IMG/VR virus record: IMGVR_UViG_3300028920_000072
Coordinates: 1,123 to 65,122 of that record
Reading direction: 5' to 3' (one strand)
DNA: 64,000 bases
Origin: a virus
Lineage: Duplodnaviria; Caudoviricetes
Both the position numbers and the translations under genes were made by a program. Below are positions 2,641 to 54,907 of this stretch, piece by piece. The notes beneath the pieces are model-generated. The model was given only the letters and a program-made list of their open reading frames with translations. It did not search any database and had not been told where the DNA came from. Within the stretch, counting starts at the first letter, position 1. Every line of letters starts with the position of its first letter.

Positions 2641-5600
2641 TGAGGCAAACTTCAGTTAATACATATGTTGAAGGTATGAATAAAGATGTTGATCGTGGAT
2701 TAATATCAAACAAAGCATATCTAGAAGCTAATAACTTTAGGCTTGTTACTACTCAGGGTAGTACAACAGGTTCATTGGAAAATATTCGTGGTAATAAATC
2801 CATTATACCCTTTGCTGATATGATGGACGAAGGAGATACTTACAGCAATGGAGTTGATTATTTTGTGTTAGCTGGTGAAATTACAGATAATGGTGGTGCT
2901 GGTACGGATTATGTAGCTGGTGAACATTTTTCTATGGTTGGCACTGCTGTAGCAAAAACCACTGGGTATACTGGAGTAGTTAGAATTATACCATCTTCTT
3001 ATGTAATAGATGATGGTCAGATGATTGTAGGTGGGATTCAAATGAGAGATGAGATCATATTGTTTACTACGAATAATACTTCTAGTAGTCCTACTGCAGG
3101 TAAAAGCTGTATATATAAATTAATAGTAGATAATGAAGATGAAGAACAAGATTCTTTAACTAAGATATATGATGATAATTTAAACGCAGGTACTAATTCA
3201 ACTGATTTTCTTACTTTTAGTACATATTATCCAATCAAAACAATAAGTAGATATGAAACAGATAATATACAAAAAGTATATTGGGTCGATGGTTATAATG
3301 AAATAAGATATGCAATTATTAGTAATAATCTTACTATAGATGGTACCGCTTATTCTAGTAATGATTATATGCCAACTGATAAGTTTGCGTTGACACCAGA
3401 TTTTACATATACTAAACCTGCAATTACAGACATAGTTAGTGGTACATTACTTCCAGGAATGATACAATATACATATCAACTTTATACAGTGAATGGTTCT
3501 GAAACAGCTTATTCTCCACTGAGTGATATTATTCATATAACTAATTCTGATGATTATGCTCCAGATGATTCTGAATACAAGGGTGAATCAGATATAACGG
3601 TTTCTACTGGCAAAGGATTAAGAATTAATATTAATAATAATGAAAATCCTGGTTATGATAGATTAAGATTGGTAAGGATACAATATACGGCTATAAATGA
3701 AACGCCTAATGTTAATATTGTAACAGAGGAGTGTATAAATCCAGAAGGTGAATCTATAGATATAATAGATACTGGGGATTTCATTAGTGAACTTACAGTC
3801 GCAGAGGTCAGTTTATTAATATCTGATTTTGAAAAATTAATCGCCCAAGATCTTGCTACTAAAGATAACAGGTTGTTTGCTGCTAATATATCTACAGATG
3901 TTTTCGATATAGGTACATATGACTCTAGAGTTGTAAGATATCGAGATTACACAGAACCGGCATCTGGTGAAGATACTATATACAAAAACACTGTTGATAG
4001 TGATCCAAGTGTCAGTGCTGGATATATAGATGACAATAGTATACAAATCAGTATTAGTGGATGGCCCACTTGGGCAGCAGTTCCTACCTCTAGGACTGTT
4101 ACAGATGTTGATGACGTAGAGACTTCACATTTGGAGATATATTATACGATTGATAGTGTACAATACCATAAGTGGTTTACCTCTGGTATAACTACTGATA
4201 ATGAAAACTATGCATCCACTACTCTCACTTTTTATGTAAATACATCTGTAAGTATATTTGGTGGATCTGGAGTACCTGACTCAATCGACTCAGTAGACAT
4301 AGCATCAACAATGTATCATTATGACTATACTGCTCCAGGTACTACTACTTATGAGACAGCTTTGATATACGATACTGGTCTTGGTGGTGATTTAGAAATA
4401 GAGGTACCTAATGATACAAATAGTCTTTCATCTTGGAATAGTGCAGGTTGGACTAATTACACAGATGAACATGATGGTATAAATTATTATAATGATCCAG
4501 ATCAATTTAATAAAGATTCTAAATTGTGTGTGTTTCAATCTGATTTATCTACAGTCGGAGCAGAGGGTCCTAATATATTAATTGAAGTTGTTACAGATAC
4601 TTTTGTTATAGACGAAGCAGCTAGTGCTGATTATACATATTATTCTGATTTAGAAGGTACTGGGGAAAATCCATCATATCAAAATTATTCCAGTCCGTTT
4701 AAAACAGGTAAAAGATCACTTCAACGTGGTGAAGTTTATAGATTGTTTTCTACGTTTTATAACGAAGAAGGACAAGCTTCTTTTCCACAATGGATGTGTG
4801 ATCTTAAAATGCCAGAAATGAATGATACGTACGGTGATACCGTTACGTACGAATTAACTACAACTAGTACAGGTGAAACAGTTGCTAAGACATTAGCACT
4901 TGAAGTCACATATAGAAATTTTCCAACAGACGCAGTTGCTGCTCAAGTTTTTGCAGTACCGAGAGAATCTGGTGATAGATCTATTCTTACACAAGCCTTG
5001 GTTATTCCTATGACAGAAGTTACTAGTTATTTTGAACCTAGAACTTTAGGTGTAGCTTTACCAAATACAGAAACTATAATAAAATTAGTATCTCCTGAAA
5101 TTAATATAAATCAAAATCTTAAATTTGGTAGTAATGATTATCTTTATGATTTGGGTTATTTTGCAGAAGTTACAGATGGAGGGATAGGTGCCAATTCAAG
5201 GTGTATTCATAAATTTCAATCGCACACGGTAAGTACAAAGGGTGATAACAATGTAAGAGAAGTGAGTGCTATTCGTAAGGTCACTCCTACTGCAAAAGAT
5301 TATTATTATACAGTTGGTTCATACGATTGTAGGAATTATAGCGATACGGAAGAGGCATATGGATCAAGTGGATATATAGTAGAATATAACACTACTGCTT
5401 GGACAGCAGAAACAAACACTAGAAATTTAGCTAATTATTGTAGGAATGTGTTTGATTCTCAATACGGTGGAAATACTTATGAAGCTAGAACTAGAAATTA
5501 TTGTACTGCGATTTCTGGTTTGGTTACTGCTACAGGTACTCCTGTTACAGCATATGGTGATACATTTATAAACTTTTTTGATGTAAATACATTGTTATAT

Positions 5601-51204: not shown

Positions 51205-51636
51205 TTAATAATTAGTGAATATTGTGAATTTTGATTTTTTACGGTTAAGAAATTTAATTAGAATATGATCCTTACTATTTCTTAATTCGTCTTTTATTAG
51301 GACTATTTTTTTGGATTCATCGTTAAAATAAATATTTTTAAAATCAACAATAGTCCAAAGGTTTGTATATTCATCCTTTTCTTTTCCCCAAAAATTCTTT
51401 GGGAGTCTATTTCTTTTTGTATCCCATGCTGATTTTAATGGTCTCCAAAAAGTTATATTTTCTTTTTTGAACATTAATGTTTTTGGAATATACAAAGATA
51501 ACGAAATATTATTAACTAATAAAGGAATTTTAATTTCATTAGTTAATCTTGTTTTCACTTGATACACTAATCTCAAACCACCTATCTGTTTATTTTCTTC
51601 TATTTTTAAAAGAGTAAATTTTATTTCTTTTTTCAT
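51205..51636 (-). CDS. Hypothetical protein
   Basis: 143-aa ORF. Confidence 0.55.
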   Translation of the reverse strand: MKKEIKFTLLKIEENKQIGGLRLVYQVKTRLTNEIKIPLLVNNISLSLYIPKTLMFKKENITFWRPLKSAWDTKRNRLPKNFWGKEKDEYTNLWTIVDFKNIYFNDESKKIVLIKDELRNSKDHILIKFLNRKKSKFTIFTNY

Positions 51637-51649
51637 TTTAATGATATTT

Positions 51650-53215
51650 GTGGTTTAGCAATTAATGTGTTGAAGCAATAACGATATTGCTATGAGTACA
51701 TGGCCAATACAATTGACAGTAAACCTCTAACTAGAATAACGGGAAAAATTCTAAGTATCTTTGTCTCTACTGTTTTTAGACATCACAACTACTTTTTTTC
51801 ACGAAAATAGATGATATATCTTTACTTATATTCCTATAATTACAATATATCCAATTAAGTTAGTCAAGGGATTACAATATCGCTACACTTCATAGAAATG
51901 TAATTCACTACCAGAGTGATTATGTGGAGTTCAATCCACTTGTACTATATATTTACTTATTTACGTTATATTGATAAAACTTAACATATTTCGCAATATG
52001 TTTTAGTGATAATCGTTATAAGTAATAATTGAAAGAGCTATTTACTCCTATTTTTCACGATAGGCTTTACTCCACCCAATATTTGATAAATTTGCTAGTT
52101 TATATAATATGGTTGGTAGGTTTCGAGACTAATGGAATCTCTAAGACCCATTTTCAATCTTCACTCATGTTTCAATTCTATTTATAACTGTGTTATCATA
52201 GCATACTCATAAAGCTTAATGCTACCTAAGCTTGCAATATACCCTATACACTATCATATTTGACCGTTACTGGATTATATAATAGTTATTAAGTAATTGA
52301 ATATATTACCCCGACTTGTTATTTTATTTATGAGTGACATCACGGTCACTTAGTTAAGAGATTTTAATTTTATTATTATCCAATTCCTATTTATTAATAT
52401 TCATATTTTATTGCGGTAGGATTCTAACCTACGAAGCCATATGTTTTGTTCACATTATATTATTGTAATTTTGGATAAATATTGATAATATAAATGTGAG
52501 AAAACTTTTTAGGCATTCTAATTACGATAGAATTCCTTTGCACTTCAAGAATTATGATGTTGGTGCATAATTCTTTCCTCTTGGATACGACTCAATCATA
52601 TTTCAATTAATAACCAACAAAAATAATAATAAATACCTACATTAACAGTTTCACTTATTTTGTATTATTATTTAATAATATCTGATACAGAGCAACCGCA
52701 AAATAAGCTGTTTCCTGCTTTTACCCCCATACTCTTATAAATGGTTGTAGCTGACATTTATGCTCCCGTATGTCCTACGTTACTGCCTTCTTTTCAACCT
52801 CACATTGTCTGTCAATTTTGATGCCTTTCAAAAGAGTGTAGCAGAATGCAACCTTAGGAGTAATTATTTTTTCAGGGAATTCCACCCTGTCCGTTGCAAT
52901 ACATAAAAGATCATTGTCTAGCCCTTCGGTTCAACACGATGTACCCAGTGTGTCTGTAGTAAATACGCTAGCATGCTTTAACTATATTTCTACGTTATGA
53001 CATCTGACTGCAATTTATGCCCTCCTGACCTCATTGATCCTATTCAACATCTTTCCAACCCACTGTTGGCGATTATTTCATATTCAGCGTGTAGCTTAGA
53101 CTGAGGAAATATAACTTATGGTGTTTTCTATTTGGAAGTAATTGATTGTACAAATAGTTCATATCACGTCCCTTAATTTAAAAATTAAAGGAGTGCACCA
53201 TCACAGGTGCACCCT
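51650..53215 (-). ncRNA. Candidate large structured non-coding RNA(s)
   Basis: No ORF of 60 aa or more in ~1.58 kb; more than 12 hairpins, GNRA and T-loop motifs on the - strand, long-range complementarity. Confidence 0.6.
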
Positions 53216-53218
53216 AAG

Positions 53219-54907
53219 TTATTGATATAATCTTAATCTTCTTGTTAATGGTTGATATGGTAAACCATCGATAGTTTTAGTAAAAGGTCTACCTAAAATT
53301 GCCACTTCTATTATAGAATCTGATGTATATTCTGATAATTCTTTCATCAATTCTGTAATTTGAATTTTCAAAAGTGTTTGTAATTTAAATAAACCTATAT
53401 TTAGACTTGATATAAATTTAACATTTGGTTCTATTACAAATGAAAAAACTTGTCTATAATTAAAAGATTTAGTATTGCGTTCTTCCAAATATATTTGACA
53501 TTCAGATACATATGGAAAACTTTTAACAAATCTTTCTATTACATCTAATTGTATAGGTATCTTAAATATAGATTTTACTCTATTGATGTTTCTACCATAT
53601 ACAAATAATAAATTATCTGTTATTTTAATAAAATCCTTTGATAGAAACATAGTATCTAAACCATCTCCATTGTGTAATTCTACAAGTCTATCAATATAGT
53701 TAATATATATATTTGGTAGAATTTCTCCTGCACACATAAATTGGTTTAATGCTTTATTAGAAAAATCATTGAATGCTATTAATTGCATTGCTTCTTGAGT
53801 ACCATATGTTGTAATTAATGGAAGAACATCCTTAGCAAGATAGAGAGCTTTCATATGTATTTGTGAATTATATACTATTATTGCTTCTTTCTTTGTTTGT
53901 TTGTTGTAGTATCTTTTAAGATTTCTTGATGCTAATTTCTTAAATAACCACTGAAGTTCCTTATGTTTAAAAATATTATGTTTAAATCTTCCTTCCATTA
54001 TAGAATCAACTTTTTCTTTCCATACGTTTTCAAAAGAAACAGTATCTTCTATTACAACTTCTGCCTTTTTCATATTATCAACAAAAATACAATTTTTCAT
54101 AAAAGGTATTAATACTGTTAATATGTGACTATATTCATATGGTATTGCTGAAAACACTGTAGTTTGAGCTTCCATGTGATCTTTCCAAAATCTACTTTGC
54201 ATAATTCTTTTCAAATGATGTGCTAATTCTCTTTCATCGACTATTACAAGTTTTTCTTGAAAATTGTGTGTGCCTTTAGTATAATAACCTAACATTCCTA
54301 ATTTTTGATTATTACAGAATTTGTCAAACATTTCATCTACCTCTTGTATAGTTAAAGGTGGATTATTCATATCTCTTACAGCATAATATTCTAATAAAGC
54401 TTTTGGTTCATCAAAATATATAGGTTTTAAAGTCAAGAGATTAAATATTCCTTTTATTAAATGTCTAGTAAATATTGAAGAATAATTTAGTCTTATGTCA
54501 TTCAAGCCTAATTTATTTTCCATATATCCATCTGTAAATATATATCTCATATTATTATTGATAATAATATTTTTCAGTTTTATTTTATCAATGTTGCTAG
54601 GAATGATTATTAACTTATTTCCTGTAAGCAATGAAGCAAAATATAATAATATCCAATTCATATTTATTACAGAATCTGAAAATTTAGTTATTACACCAAG
54701 AGAATAATATTCTTTATTATCAAATATTAAGGTATTCTCAACTGATGTTCTGAATAATATAGTTAATAATCTCATATAATATACTAATACACTGAAAAAG
54801 TCTGACATTTTGTGATTTGAAGTCACATTTGTGTAGAAATGCTTTTTTATATGATCAAAGATCATATTTTTTAAAGGACTTATTCGTTTATCTAATATAT
54901 TTTTCAT
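53219..54907 (-). CDS. Divergent AMP-binding (ANL) long-chain acyl-CoA synthetase homolog, probably catalytically altered
   Basis: Collinear degenerate ANL motifs: NWILLYFASLLTG, YYTKGTHNFQEKLV (A3), YGTQE (A5), CAGEILP, SKD..LFVYGR..IQLDVIERFVKSFPYVSEC (A7/A8), PFTKT. Confidence 0.65.
   Translation of the reverse strand: MKNILDKRISPLKNMIFDHIKKHFYTNVTSNHKMSDFFSVLVYYMRLLTILFRTSVENTLIFDNKEYYSLGVITKFSDSVINMNWILLYFASLLTGNKLIIIPSNIDKIKLKNIIINNNMRYIFTDGYMENKLGLNDIRLNYSSIFTRHLIKGIFNLLTLKPIYFDEPKALLEYYAVRDMNNPPLTIQEVDEMFDKFCNNQKLGMLGYYTKGTHNFQEKLVIVDERELAHHLKRIMQSRFWKDHMEAQTTVFSAIPYEYSHILTVLIPFMKNCIFVDNMKKAEVVIEDTVSFENVWKEKVDSIMEGRFKHNIFKHKELQWLFKKLASRNLKRYYNKQTKKEAIIVYNSQIHMKALYLAKDVLPLITTYGTQEAMQLIAFNDFSNKALNQFMCAGEILPNIYINYIDRLVELHNGDGLDTMFLSKDFIKITDNLLFVYGRNINRVKSIFKIPIQLDVIERFVKSFPYVSECQIYLEERNTKSFNYRQVFSFVIEPNVKFISSLNIGLFKLQTLLKIQITELMKELSEYTSDSIIEVAILGRPFTKTIDGLPYQPLTRRLRLYQ

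What the first reader, a model, noticed from the sequence alone, without database searches (positions are those of the whole stretch)
51637..53218. ~1.58-kb ORF-free region that looks like a giant structured ncRNA
Seen: in an otherwise wall-to-wall coding genome this block has no ORF of 60 aa or more in any frame, yet is packed with stems. Examples: AGCAATA/TATTGCT (51674-91); AACATATT-GCGA-AATATGTT on the - strand (51983-52002, GNRA tetraloop); AGTGAC/GTCACT (52333-50); ATTCTA/TAGAAT (52515-33); AAGAATTATG/CATAATTCTT (52547-75); CTTATTTTG/CAAAATAAG (52654-707); CCAAC/GTTGG (53055-69); GTGCACC/GGTGCAC (53193-212). There is also a ~400-nt long-range pairing (ATATATCCA..GTCAA 51845-66 with TTGAC..TGGATTATAT 52260-80). 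Loops read as GNRA on the - strand, the coding strand of the flanking genes. Established: phages encode large ornate ncRNAs (GOLLD, ROOL). Inference: one very large RNA or several tandem RNAs of that kind, possibly a new class. I cannot assign a family.
Basis: partly seen in the sequence, partly recalled or inferred. Interest (0 to 1): 0.85.

Follow-up and report, generated by a model that had tools for sequence, protein, structure and literature searches.

The report
Giant structured RNA locus, crAss-like phage
The 1.58-kb gene-free stretch of this marine-sediment crAss-like phage is a conserved, intricately base-paired non-coding RNA locus, about twice the size of the largest known ornate phage RNAs, that matches no catalogued RNA family and has no known job.

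Summary
The ORF-free block 51637-53218 is real; it is the only stretch of 500 nt or more without a 60-aa ORF in the window. No stop-codon recoding opens it. It has no tRNA, tmRNA or Rfam match.

Ten related phage contigs carry a like element. In all 8 loci with both flanks it lies between the same two genes. Those proteins are only 22-38% identical, yet the gap stays 1.56-1.94 kb.

Helices along almost the whole length keep pairing through compensatory changes. They include a pseudoknot-forming helix spanning about 165 nt, an H-type pseudoknot, T-loop-like hairpins and a tRNA-like arm set. Wobble pairs point to the minus strand as the RNA.

Whether it is one transcript, and what it does, remain open; no RNA data exist.

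The closest published analogue is the pair of abundant early long ncRNAs of phage phi14:2, which show no detectable homology. This scan has noted similar giant RNA loci in other crAss-like genomes. The upstream gene, always adjacent, is a divergent ANL (AMP-binding) enzyme homologue.

The parts
51637..53218 (-). Whole ORF-free locus (RNA sense = minus strand). Conserved, structured non-coding region of about 1.55 kb.
   Evidence: no ORF; no recoding; synteny in 8 of 8 loci with both flanks; gap 1561-1944 nt.
53191..53214 (-). 5' hairpin directly after the stop codon of the upstream gene. It looks like an intrinsic terminator. Relatives have a hairpin at the same place.
   Evidence: 9-bp stem with 6 G-C pairs, followed by a T-rich tail; alignment.
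53055..53069 (-). Hairpin hpA (5-bp stem, 5-nt loop) in the 5' domain.
   Evidence: Alignment: six sequences show different, complementary stems at this place (read by eye; no formal count made).
53022..53026 (-). 5' strand of long-range helix LR1. It pairs with 52856-52860, inside the internal loop of module 1, which makes a pseudoknot spanning about 165 nt.
   Evidence: found blind; 5 pairs, 8 of 8 sequences fully paired, 3 pairs with changes on both sides, 4 G-U cells.
52848..52897 (-). Module 1. Outer 5-bp stem (52893-97 with 52848-52). Inner 4-bp stem (52885-88 with 52874-77) capped by a 7-nt T-loop-like loop. Also holds the LR1 3' strand (52856-60).
   Evidence: 9 pairs, 90 of 90 cells paired, 6 pairs and 13 cells changed on both sides, 0 of 500 shuffles reach this. 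RNAalifold predicts the same structure. Model R1 scores 48 bits here.
52753..52774 (-). Hairpin hpL: 4-bp stem around a conserved 14-nt loop.
   Evidence: Alignment: eight sequences have different complementary stems around the same loop motif (read by eye).
52645..52718 (-).
   Evidence: 4 pairs, all with changes on both sides, 8-11 cells.
52547..52575 (-). Hairpin H_a with a conserved 9-nt loop.
   Evidence: 7 sequences, 5 pairs, 77% of 35 cells paired, 4 pairs and 12 cells changed on both sides.
52416..52533 (-). tRNA-like arm set. An anticodon-arm-like hairpin with a 7-nt loop (52515-33). A 3-bp 'variable-arm' stem (52512-14 with 52436-38) that in the window encloses a ~70-nt insertion hairpin. 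A T-arm-like hairpin (52428-32 with 52416-20).
   Evidence: 12 pairs, 110 of 120 cells paired (91.7%), 8 pairs and 19 cells changed on both sides, 0 of 500 shuffles for cells. Curated counts.
52333..52350 (-). Hairpin Mod3 (6-bp stem, 6-nt loop).
   Evidence: present in 5 of 10 sequences, 24 of 25 cells paired, 3 pairs changed on both sides.
52199..52232 (-). H-type pseudoknot. S1 is 52227-32 with 52213-18. S2 is 52219-24 with 52199-204.
   Evidence: (MAFFT alignment, 10 sequences): 12 pairs, 88.2% of 119 cells paired against 64.8% in shuffles, 11 pairs and 32 cells changed on both sides, 0 of 500 shuffles, slid controls 30-44%. Curated counts.
52047..52064 (-). Hairpin D (5-bp stem, conserved purine-rich loop), followed by a conserved single-stranded motif.
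   Evidence: RNAalifold: 6 pairs, 94.7% of 57 cells paired, 5 pairs and 21 cells changed on both sides. (47 of 50 cells).
51674..51717 (-). 3' domain hairpins: 3p-a (51703-17) and 3p-b (51674-91). They end about 40 nt before the start codon of the next gene.
   Evidence: 3p-a: (5 pairs, 4 with changes on both sides, 10 cells). 3p-b: read by eye from the alignment; no count made.
53219..54907 (-). Upstream neighbour: 562-aa divergent ANL (AMP-binding) fold protein, adjacent to the RNA in all 8 loci with this flank.
   Evidence: synteny; fold; profile reaches PF00501 proteins.
51205..51636 (-). Downstream neighbour: 143-aa protein of unknown family, directly after the RNA in all 10 loci that reach this flank.
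   Evidence: No Pfam or PHROG hit. Structure model too poor to use.

Best explanation
The gap is a gene locus for a very large (about 1.5 kb), multi-domain, structured non-coding RNA read from the minus strand, the same direction as the flanking genes.

Shown:
- A small clade of environmental crAss-like phages keeps it at one fixed position, between an ANL-fold gene and a 143-aa gene.
- Selection acts on base pairing, not on protein coding.
- The fold contains a 5' domain tied together by a pseudoknot-forming helix spanning about 165 nt, T-loop-like hairpins, a tRNA-like set of arms (anticodon-like arm, variable-arm stem, T arm), an H-type pseudoknot, and conserved 3' hairpins.

Inferred:
- It is made as one primary transcript. 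It either starts after the terminator-like hairpin at 53214-53191 or is read through from the upstream gene.
- It accumulates in infected cells, like the long ncRNAs of phage phi14:2.
- It acts in trans as a scaffold or decoy. Its tRNA-like and T-loop modules would engage a tRNA-binding partner, either a host factor or the neighbouring ANL-fold protein, or it would self-assemble like GOLLD and ROOL.

The function itself is not shown.
For: No coding reading.
- No ORF of 60 aa or more, and no rescue by recoding a stop codon.

Conservation far above the neighbourhood.
- The flanking proteins are 22-38% identical among relatives.
- blastn matches of 70-83% identity to the related loci L002 and L054 fall only inside the gap. 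The only flank match is a 33-nt hit (E 0.004) to four loci that lack the element.

Synteny and length.
- 8 of 8 loci with both flanks have the gap between the same two genes: 1582, 1655, 1685, 1561, 1589, 1646, 1603 and about 1944 nt.
- Three further partial contigs fit.

Covariation on machine alignments.
- Module 1: 90 of 90 cells paired, 13 compensatory cells, 0 of 500 shuffles.
- Module 1 plus the long-range helix: 112 of 112 cells paired, 18 compensatory cells, 0 of 500.
- Pseudoknot: 88.2% paired against 64.8% in shuffles, 32 compensatory cells, 0 of 500.
- tRNA-like arms: 91.7% against 79.0%, 19 compensatory cells, 0 of 500.
- Slid controls give 24-53% paired in all four.

Blind search.
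- A search for stacked covarying column pairs found 3-5 antiparallel helices of 5 bp or more, against 0 in the parallel-register control.

Strand.
- Curated helices hold 13 G-U and 0 A-C cells.
- The long-range helix holds 4 G-U cells and none unpaired.

Not a known family.
- No Rfam match and no tRNA or tmRNA.

Precedent.
- In crAss-like phage phi14:2, long intergenic regions are transcribed early, persistently, and above most genes (passages read).
Against: - No expression data. No listed sequencing run on record as RNA holds the stretch, and no isolate of this clade exists.
- Folding energy is only modestly better than shuffles and similar on both strands.
- Only 11 related sequences are known. 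They share ancestry, so the shuffle controls are not probabilities.
- Several counts (hpA and hpL) rest on strands I picked by eye, and rows were dropped (listed in the report).
- The uncurated alignment A6 holds 4 A-C or C-A cells beside 6 G-U or U-G cells. These sit where the alignment or the module itself diverges.
- The tRNA-like arms are not universal. L107 and L096 have a different hairpin in place of the anticodon-like arm, and L004 fits the T arm poorly.
- The middle part varies a lot in length.
- No helix ties the 5' half to the 3' half with real covariation. The two candidates are invariant or ambiguous.
- The link to the ANL protein is adjacency only.
Confidence: 0.8

Rival explanations
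1. The locus is not one giant RNA. It is a tandem set of two to four separate structured RNAs, for example a 5' RNA of about 370 nt or more, a tRNA-like RNA ending at the T arm, a pseudoknot RNA and a 3' RNA. These would be made from their own promoters or cut out of a precursor.
For: The only long-range helix with covariation stays inside the 5' domain. No covarying helix joins the halves. The T-arm-like hairpin lies in the middle, at a place where a tRNA-like RNA would end. In phi14:2 the comparable 1.7-kb gap holds at least two units, one of them a tmRNA. An earlier follow-up of this scan reached this view for another crAss-like locus (e1-6058844).
Against: The consensus scan finds no internal minus-strand terminator-like site. 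The total length is held within 1.56-1.69 kb in 7 of 8 complete loci. All modules keep one order in every member.
Confidence: 0.35
2. The structures are cis-acting parts of messenger RNAs: a long structured 3' UTR of the ANL-fold gene and/or a 5' leader controlling the 143-aa gene and the replication genes behind it.
For: Same strand as both neighbours. Conserved structure runs from just after the upstream stop codon to about 40 nt before the next start codon.
Against: 1.5 kb is far beyond known bacterial or phage leaders. The content (pseudoknots, T-loop hairpins, tRNA-like arms, a pseudoknot-forming long-range helix) is that of a folded RNA body rather than a switch. No riboswitch or leader family matches.
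Confidence: 0.1
3. It is a DNA-level element such as a replication origin or packaging site in the replication module. The hairpins would form in single-stranded DNA.
For: The position is among replication genes (RNR, PolB). It is a long non-coding stretch in a compact genome.
Against: There are no iterons or other repeats and no AT-rich dip; G+C is in fact higher in part of it. Pairing is kept through G-U but not A-C in curated helices, which is a strand-specific RNA signature. An H-type pseudoknot and T-loop-like hairpins are RNA motifs.
Confidence: 0.03
4. It is a very divergent member of a known large RNA family (GOLLD, ROOL, tmRNA, RNase P, group I or II intron) that the models miss.
For: T-arm-like hairpins and pseudoknots also occur in tmRNA. 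phi14:2 has a tmRNA in its gap. This scan reported a divergent GOLLD in another crAss-like phage (e1-6016069).
Against: No hit to any of 4227 Rfam models at E<=10 in the window, or at E<=1 in 8 relatives' loci, apart from two chance-level hits to unrelated small RNAs. ARAGORN finds nothing. No conserved tag-peptide frame. The element is twice the size of GOLLD. It is not inside a gene, as an intron would be.
Confidence: 0.03
5. It is a decayed or recoded protein gene.
For: The length of about 1.6 kb would suit a gene of about 500 aa.
Against: No frame opens under any single stop reassignment. The gap is kept ORF-free in 8 of 8 complete relatives that are otherwise saturated with change. Conservation comes in short blocks with compensatory pairing.
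Confidence: 0.01

Closest known systems
Long non-coding RNAs of crAss-like Cellulophaga phage phi14:2 (g004-g005 and g005-g006 intergenic regions; Drobysheva et al., bioRxiv 10.1101/2020.03.07.982082; passages read)
   Same: Both are crAss-like phages from the sea. Both have a gene-free gap of about 1.6-1.7 kb (phi14:2: 2905-4601, 1697 nt). In both, the gap lies on the same strand as its neighbours and upstream of replication genes. Function is unknown in both. In phi14:2 the region is transcribed early, persistently, and more strongly than most genes.
   Different: No detectable homology. The module-1 model R1 finds nothing in the phi14:2 gap, my motif patterns are absent there, and the flanking proteins are unrelated. 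Part of the phi14:2 gap is a tmRNA by ARAGORN and Rfam; the window has none. Expression is shown for phi14:2 only.
GOLLD RNA (Rfam family; giant ornate phage and prophage RNA; cryo-EM nanocage: Kretsch et al., bioRxiv 10.1101/2024.12.08.627333, abstract and introduction read)
   Same: A large, elaborately paired, phage-borne RNA of unknown function, recognised by covariation.
   Different: No match to the Rfam model. About twice the length (the ~800-nt size of GOLLD is recalled). No tRNA gene anywhere in the window. Multimer formation is untested.
ROOL RNA (Rfam family; same cryo-EM paper)
   Same: A large ornate RNA found in phages. Function unknown.
   Different: No match to the Rfam model. 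About 2.5 times the length (the ~580-nt size of ROOL is recalled). A different host range.
tRNA and tmRNA (tRNA-like domain)
   Same: A hairpin with a 7-nt loop, then a short variable-arm stem, then a 5-bp stem with a 7-nt T-loop-like loop. This is the order of the 3' two-thirds of a class II tRNA. One member (L004) has a loop that reads like a tRNA-Tyr anticodon loop (recalled consensus).
   Different: ARAGORN and the Rfam tRNA and tmRNA models do not match. No acceptor stem or D arm was found. No conserved tag frame. The arm set sits in the middle of a 1.5-kb element.

Membership tests
Conserved structured ncRNA (generic criteria) | Base pairs kept through compensatory changes across homologues | tested here: met
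   0 of 500 shuffles reach the observed compensatory cells; slid registers give 24-53% paired. Blind stack search: 3-5 helices against 0 in the control.
Conserved structured ncRNA (generic criteria) | Transcribed as RNA, with defined ends | not testable with these tools
   No listed run on record as RNA holds the stretch. No isolate exists.
GOLLD | Match to the Rfam covariance model | tested here: not met
   No hit at gathering score, at E<=10 in the gap, or at E<=1 in 8 relatives' loci.
GOLLD | Frequent adjacency to tRNA genes (recalled feature) | tested here: not met
   0 tRNA genes in the 64-kb window. tRNAs in relatives lie kilobases away from the gap.
GOLLD / ROOL | RNA-only homo-oligomeric nanocage | not testable with these tools
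   Needs in vitro transcription, mass photometry or cryo-EM (feature from the abstract read).
ROOL | Match to the Rfam covariance model | tested here: not met
tmRNA | tRNA-like domain detected by ARAGORN or the Rfam tmRNA models | tested here: not met
   The same tools do find the phi14:2 tmRNA, so they work on a crAss-like phage.
tmRNA | Conserved tag-peptide reading frame ending in a hydrophobic or Ala-rich tail | tested here: not met
   no candidate in 4 of 10 members (W, L002, L107, L098), and no shared position or sequence among the others.
tRNA | Cloverleaf recognised by ARAGORN or the Rfam tRNA model | tested here: not met
phi14:2 long ncRNAs | Long gene-free gap on the strand of its neighbours in the early/replication part of a crAss-like genome | tested here: met
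   PolB's nearest phage relatives are crAss-like at 30-32% identity.
phi14:2 long ncRNAs | Sequence or structure homology | tested here: not met
Group I / II introns | Match to Rfam intron models; insertion in a host gene | tested here: not met
   The element lies between two complete ORFs.

The most novel reading that the evidence does not exclude
The locus encodes a single RNA of about 1.5 kb, the largest non-ribosomal structured RNA known in a phage, that works as a ribonucleoprotein with the ANL-fold adenylate-forming enzyme always encoded just upstream. The enzyme would recognise the tRNA-like arm set and adenylate or acylate the RNA, or a ligand held by it. That would be a phage-borne RNA-charging system outside the aminoacyl-tRNA synthetase families. 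Alternatively the RNA builds an RNA-only cage larger than those of GOLLD and ROOL.
Probability: 0.08. Interest if true: 0.95.

Novelty: new variant of a known kind. Interest (0 to 1): 0.72.

Why it matters
Very large structured RNAs outside the ribosome are rare. Each one found so far (GOLLD, ROOL, OLE) has turned out to have an unexpected architecture. This family is about twice their size and sits in a compact phage genome, where 1.5 kb of non-coding DNA must pay its way. It is held at one place while the neighbouring proteins have diverged to 22-38% identity.

It combines tRNA-like arms, T-loop-like hairpins and pseudoknots, and it is always next to an adenylate-forming enzyme homologue. 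That pairing gives a concrete, testable lead to function.

Together with the abundant but unexplained long ncRNAs of phi14:2, and with the similar loci this scan has noted in other crAss-like lineages, it suggests that giant RNAs are a general, undescribed feature of crAss-like phage biology. My literature searches found no description of such a family. They cover only the held library, and supplements were closed.

Tried and rejected
Recoded gene. TAG=Q, table 4 and TAA=Q give no spanning frame. I did not test combined reassignments.

tRNA array. ARAGORN finds 0 genes.

Known RNA family. No real Rfam hit. The only hits are TarA (22.4 bits against a gathering score of 80) and snoJ33 (27.7 against 45). 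I read both as chance.

Repeats, CRISPR, DGR or iterons. Nothing in or involving the gap beyond AT-rich chance matches.

Phage database. No DNA match to the gap. No tblastn match to the 562-aa protein. The best RNR match is 48% identical.

Tag peptide for a tmRNA reading. None conserved.

Homology to the phi14:2 gap. None by motif patterns, model R1 or flanking proteins.

Closing helix for the whole RNA. There are two candidates. One joins an invariant purine-rich motif 3' of module 1 to the 3' end. The other joins the H_a loop to a conserved 3'-domain motif. Both have little or no true covariation and ambiguous registers. I do not claim either.

Expression. No RNA holder is listed. Two DNA runs from marine sediment metagenomes hold the stretch, and one may be the source.

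Widening the family.
- A scan with the single 562-aa protein found nothing.
- The search for homologous proteins returned only the window's own protein.
- Viral scans with two representatives, P0010 and P0022, found nothing.
- So I could not test whether the RNA follows the ANL gene in those further lineages.

143-aa protein. The AlphaFold model is too poor (pLDDT 52.6, pTM 0.38), so I did not search with it.

Recalled claim dropped. I recalled that Yutin et al. 2021 describe long non-coding regions. The paper has 0 occurrences of the terms searched.

Supplements. Supplementary Tables 2 and 3 of the phi14:2 preprint (transcript levels of the intergenic regions) could not be seen.

Rows dropped.
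- L123 is in none of the sets.
- PK_S1 is without L004 (register shifted by 2).
- PK_S2 is without L054 (no partner strand found).
- The T arm and the V stem are without L004.
- M2 is without L107 and L096 (a different hairpin there).
- Mod3 uses only the 5 of 10 sequences that have the hairpin.
Full report
**What is there**

The window is 64 kb of a 65-kb IMG/VR virus record, estimated 55% complete. It holds giant ORFs of 4483 and 1916 aa. It also holds a PolB, an RNR and an exonuclease with phage family matches. PolB's nearest phage relatives are crAss-like phages at 30-32% identity. The only public runs that hold the stretch are two marine-sediment metagenomes.

Genes are packed end to end, with one exception. 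Window 51637-53218 (1582 nt) is the only stretch of 500 nt or more without an ORF of 60 aa or more. It lies between two minus-strand ORFs, 53219-54907 (562 aa) and 51205-51636 (143 aa).

**Trivial explanations checked first**

- Recoding. Reading TAG, TGA or TAA as sense gives at most 81, 85 and 138 aa inside the gap, and no frame crosses it.
- Known RNAs. ARAGORN finds no tRNA or tmRNA in the whole window. Rfam 15 gives nothing at gathering scores. At E<=10 there is only a chance-level TarA hit, 22.4 bits against a cut-off of 80.
- Repeats. There are no direct, inverted or tandem repeats of note.
- Composition. G+C rises to 0.38-0.40 in 52650-53100, against about 0.25 around it.
- Folding energy. 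It beats dinucleotide shuffles only modestly, and on both strands. Minus strand: z = -3.16 and -2.18. Plus strand: z = -2.46 and -1.86, with 20 shuffles each. Energy alone decides nothing.
- Terminator. A terminator-like hairpin lies on the minus strand at 53214-53191, just after the upstream stop codon.

**Relatives**

The gap has no DNA match among 50,697 phage records. The 562-aa protein found no relatives in IMG/VR by itself. I therefore fetched loci around relatives of the nearby RNR gene; 87 were confirmed and 80 kept.

The four closest relatives (RNR 68-72% identical: L002, L003, L004, L054) have a large ORF-free gap at the same distance upstream of RNR. In three of them BLAST shows homologues of the window's 562-aa and 143-aa proteins on either side. 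In L004 the upstream ORF (521 aa) gave no BLAST hit but aligns with the family at 22% identity. These flanking proteins are 22-38% identical. Neutral DNA at that divergence is randomised. Yet blastn finds collinear blocks of 30-130 nt at 70-83% identity inside the gaps.

I turned two conserved blocks into patterns.
- A metagenome scan returned 33 stretches. Eight are real: 3 are the contigs already known and 5 are new (L096, L098, L105, L107, L108). The other 25 are unrelated.
- A looser pattern in IMG/VR returned 8 stretches. Four are the known contigs. One is a new member, L123, on a 101-kb contig, which scores 67 bits with my model. One (L124) is a weak, uncertain match at 20.1 bits (E 0.015), which I did not count. 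Two match only the 16-nt inner hairpin of the model (13.3 bits).

That makes 11 members.

All 8 loci with both flanks show the same order, ANL-like gene, then gap, then 143-aa gene. The gaps are 1582, 1655, 1685, 1561, 1589, 1646, 1603 and about 1944 nt. The last is uncertain because the start of the downstream ORF is unclear. The three partial contigs fit. L096 and L105 keep the downstream genes, and L098 (1773 nt) lies wholly inside the element. None of the relatives' gaps holds a tRNA or an Rfam family.

**Structure**

RNA sense is taken as the window's minus strand. Coordinates come from alignment columns.

1. *Module 1 (52897-52848).* A 5-bp outer stem and a 4-bp inner stem capped by a 7-nt loop.
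   - On a MAFFT alignment of 10 sequences, all 90 cells pair.
   - 6 of 9 pairs and 13 cells change on both sides.
   - 0 of 500 shuffles reach this, and slid registers pair 28-51%.
   - RNAalifold predicts the same structure unaided.

2. *Long-range helix LR1 (53026-53022 with 52860-52856).* I found it by a blind search for stacked covarying columns.
   - Its 3' strand lies inside module 1's internal loop, so it forms a pseudoknot spanning about 165 nt.
   - With module 1, 112 of 112 cells pair in 8 sequences. 9 of 14 pairs and 18 cells change on both sides, and 0 of 500 shuffles reach this.

3. *tRNA-like arm set (52533-52416).* It has three parts:
   - a hairpin with a 7-nt loop;
   - a 3-bp stem that closes a 4-5-nt loop in four relatives (L003, L054, L098, L107) and longer insertions (about 20 to 70 nt) in the window and four others;
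   - a 5-bp stem with a 7-nt T-loop-like loop.

   On the MAFFT alignment, 110 of 120 cells pair (91.7% against 79.0% in shuffles). 8 of 12 pairs and 19 cells change on both sides. 0 of 500 shuffles reach the cells and 3 of 500 reach the pairs.

4. *H-type pseudoknot (52232-52199).* 12 pairs, with 88.2% of 119 cells paired against 64.8% in shuffles. 11 pairs and 32 cells change on both sides, 0 of 500 shuffles reach this, and slid registers pair 30-44%. The count includes three imperfectly aligned rows.

5. *Further hairpins with differing complementary stems.*
   - hpA, 53069-53055 (read by eye).
   - hpL, 52774-52753 (read by eye).
   - A 4-bp helix, 52718-15 with 52648-45.
   - H_a, 52575-52547 (only 77% of 35 cells paired on that alignment).
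   - Mod3, 52350-52333 (5 of 10 sequences).
   - D, 52064-52047.
   - 3p-a, 51717-51703.
   - 3p-b, 51691-51674 (read by eye from the alignment; no count made).

The blind stack search gives 3-5 antiparallel helices of 5 bp or more with at least 3 covarying pairs, against 0 in a parallel-register control. At 4 bp the control is not clean: 4-13 against 0-5. I therefore claim only the longer helices, or those confirmed separately.

Conserved structure thus runs from near the upstream stop codon to about 40 nt before the next start codon.

**Strand**

In my curated helix set there are 13 G-U cells and 0 A-C cells among 303 cells. LR1 adds 4 G-U cells and none unpaired. On the other strand every G-U would be an A-C mismatch.

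Two caveats apply. I chose the strands in this orientation and let stems extend through G-U. The uncurated alignment A6 holds 4 A-C or C-A cells beside 6 G-U or U-G cells. Those sit in rows where the module is divergent or misaligned (L107, L096, L004). I rate the minus strand as likely, not proven.

**One RNA or several**

LR1 shows that the 5' domain is one folded unit, from about 53026 to 52848. Beyond that, I found no helix with real covariation joining the halves. Two candidates are invariant or ambiguous.

For a single unit:
- the fixed order of all modules;
- a total length held within 1.56-1.69 kb in 7 of 8 complete loci;
- no internal minus-strand terminator-like site.

For several units:
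- the mid-element T arm;
- the precedent of phi14:2.

I put one primary transcript at about even odds.

**Comparison with what is known**

The closest published case is phi14:2, a marine crAss-like phage. Two long intergenic regions there are transcribed in the direction of their neighbours. They appear at the earliest time point, do not decline, and exceed most genes. [quoted passage not shown]

In the GenBank record this is a 1697-nt gap, 2905-4601. ARAGORN and Rfam call a tmRNA at 4031-4500, scoring 46 bits against a gathering score of 47, with E = 1.6e-16. I find no homology between that gap and this family. The relation is one of kind and position, not of family.

GOLLD and ROOL are the known giant ornate phage RNAs, and they form RNA-only cages (abstract read). 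Their Rfam models do not match here or in 8 relatives' loci. No tRNA gene is near, and this element is about twice as long.

tRNA and tmRNA membership fails as well. Still, the arm set copies the order of the 3' two-thirds of a class II tRNA. The reading of the 7-nt loops as T-loops, and of the L004 loop as like a tRNA-Tyr anticodon loop, is from memory and comes from no tool.

My literature searches found no description of such an RNA family in crAss-like phages. Yutin et al. 2021 do not mention non-coding regions.

This scan, however, has noted comparable 1.2-2.1-kb structured loci in at least eight other crAss-like genomes (AI notes that I did not test). The kind has therefore been seen before on other DNA. 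Whether those loci are homologous to this family is unknown.

**The neighbour**

The 562-aa protein has no Pfam or PHROG hit of its own. An AlphaFold model from five family members is poor (pLDDT 51, pTM 0.49). Even so, Foldseek places it on ANL adenylate-forming enzymes: MatB, FadD10, luciferases and acyl-CoA/ACP synthetases. The matches are full length, with E about 1e-11 and TM 0.36-0.47, and 560 hits reach E<=0.001.

Independently, a profile of the family reaches 2147 cluster representatives at E<=0.001. All nine that I sampled match PF00501, and eight of them score above Pfam's cut-off, including a close phage relative at 47.8 bits.

The family consensus keeps a Gly-Lys near the C-terminus, where ANL enzymes carry their catalytic lysine. 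The window's own copy does not appear to (consensus and translation, read by eye). The gene is adjacent to the RNA in 8 of 8 loci. That is adjacency only; I tested no binding.

**Most likely mechanism**

Shown: a conserved, strand-specific, multi-domain RNA fold at a fixed genomic position.

Inferred, in falling order of confidence:
1. It is transcribed with or just after the ANL gene and accumulates as a stable RNA, as in phi14:2.
2. It acts in trans rather than as an mRNA leader.
3. Its tRNA-like and T-loop modules are the working surfaces. They would bind a tRNA-recognising partner (a host factor or the ANL-fold protein), or mediate self-assembly.

I cannot choose among these partners with the data in hand.

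**Verdict**

This is a new RNA family of the known kind 'giant structured phage ncRNA', with distinctive size, architecture and gene association. Expression, unity and function are open.

Noticed in passing
window 53219-54907 (-): The 562-aa protein upstream of the RNA is a divergent ANL (AMP-binding) fold protein. Foldseek's top hits are all ANL enzymes, and the family profile reaches PF00501 proteins. It has no Pfam or PHROG hit of its own. The window's copy seems to lack the C-terminal Gly-Lys that the family consensus keeps.
   Followed up: partly
L122 (NC_021806, phage phi14:2) 4031-4500: The g005-g006 intergenic region of phi14:2 was described in the preprint as a long ncRNA of unknown function. 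ARAGORN calls it a tmRNA with an 11-residue tag peptide. Rfam's tmRNA model matches at 46 bits, 1 bit under the gathering score, with E = 1.6e-16. The rest of the gap (2905-4030) remains unassigned.
   Followed up: partly
L050 and L060, 4632-5670: Two identical, more distant RNR-bearing phage loci have a 1039-nt ORF-free gap at a similar distance upstream of RNR, with an internal 51-nt direct repeat at 82% identity. None of this family's motifs occur there and the flanking genes differ. It may be another non-coding element.
   Followed up: no
L022, L059, L063-L068, L070, L072, L079, L080: In a dozen RNR loci, the table-11 ORF scan reports stretches of 0.8-1.5 kb without any ORF of 60 aa or more that overlap the RNR match itself. 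This suggests stop-codon recoding, introns or masked sequence in those phages.
   Followed up: no
L095, L097, L102, L110, L121: Five metagenome contigs, two of them over 100 kb, share a nearly identical stretch of about 80 nt that happened to fit my search pattern. They are unrelated to this RNA family. I did not examine what the stretch is.
   Followed up: no
window 53219-54907 (protein P0001): The protein collection records the window's own 562-aa protein on a contig of 97,125 bases. A longer assembly of this phage than the 65-kb record may therefore exist.
   Followed up: no
L124 324-388: An IMG/VR contig of 19.5 kb has a weak match to the module-1 model (20.1 bits, E 0.015). It has the same inner stem and loop but a broken outer stem. 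It may be a distant relative or chance.
   Followed up: no
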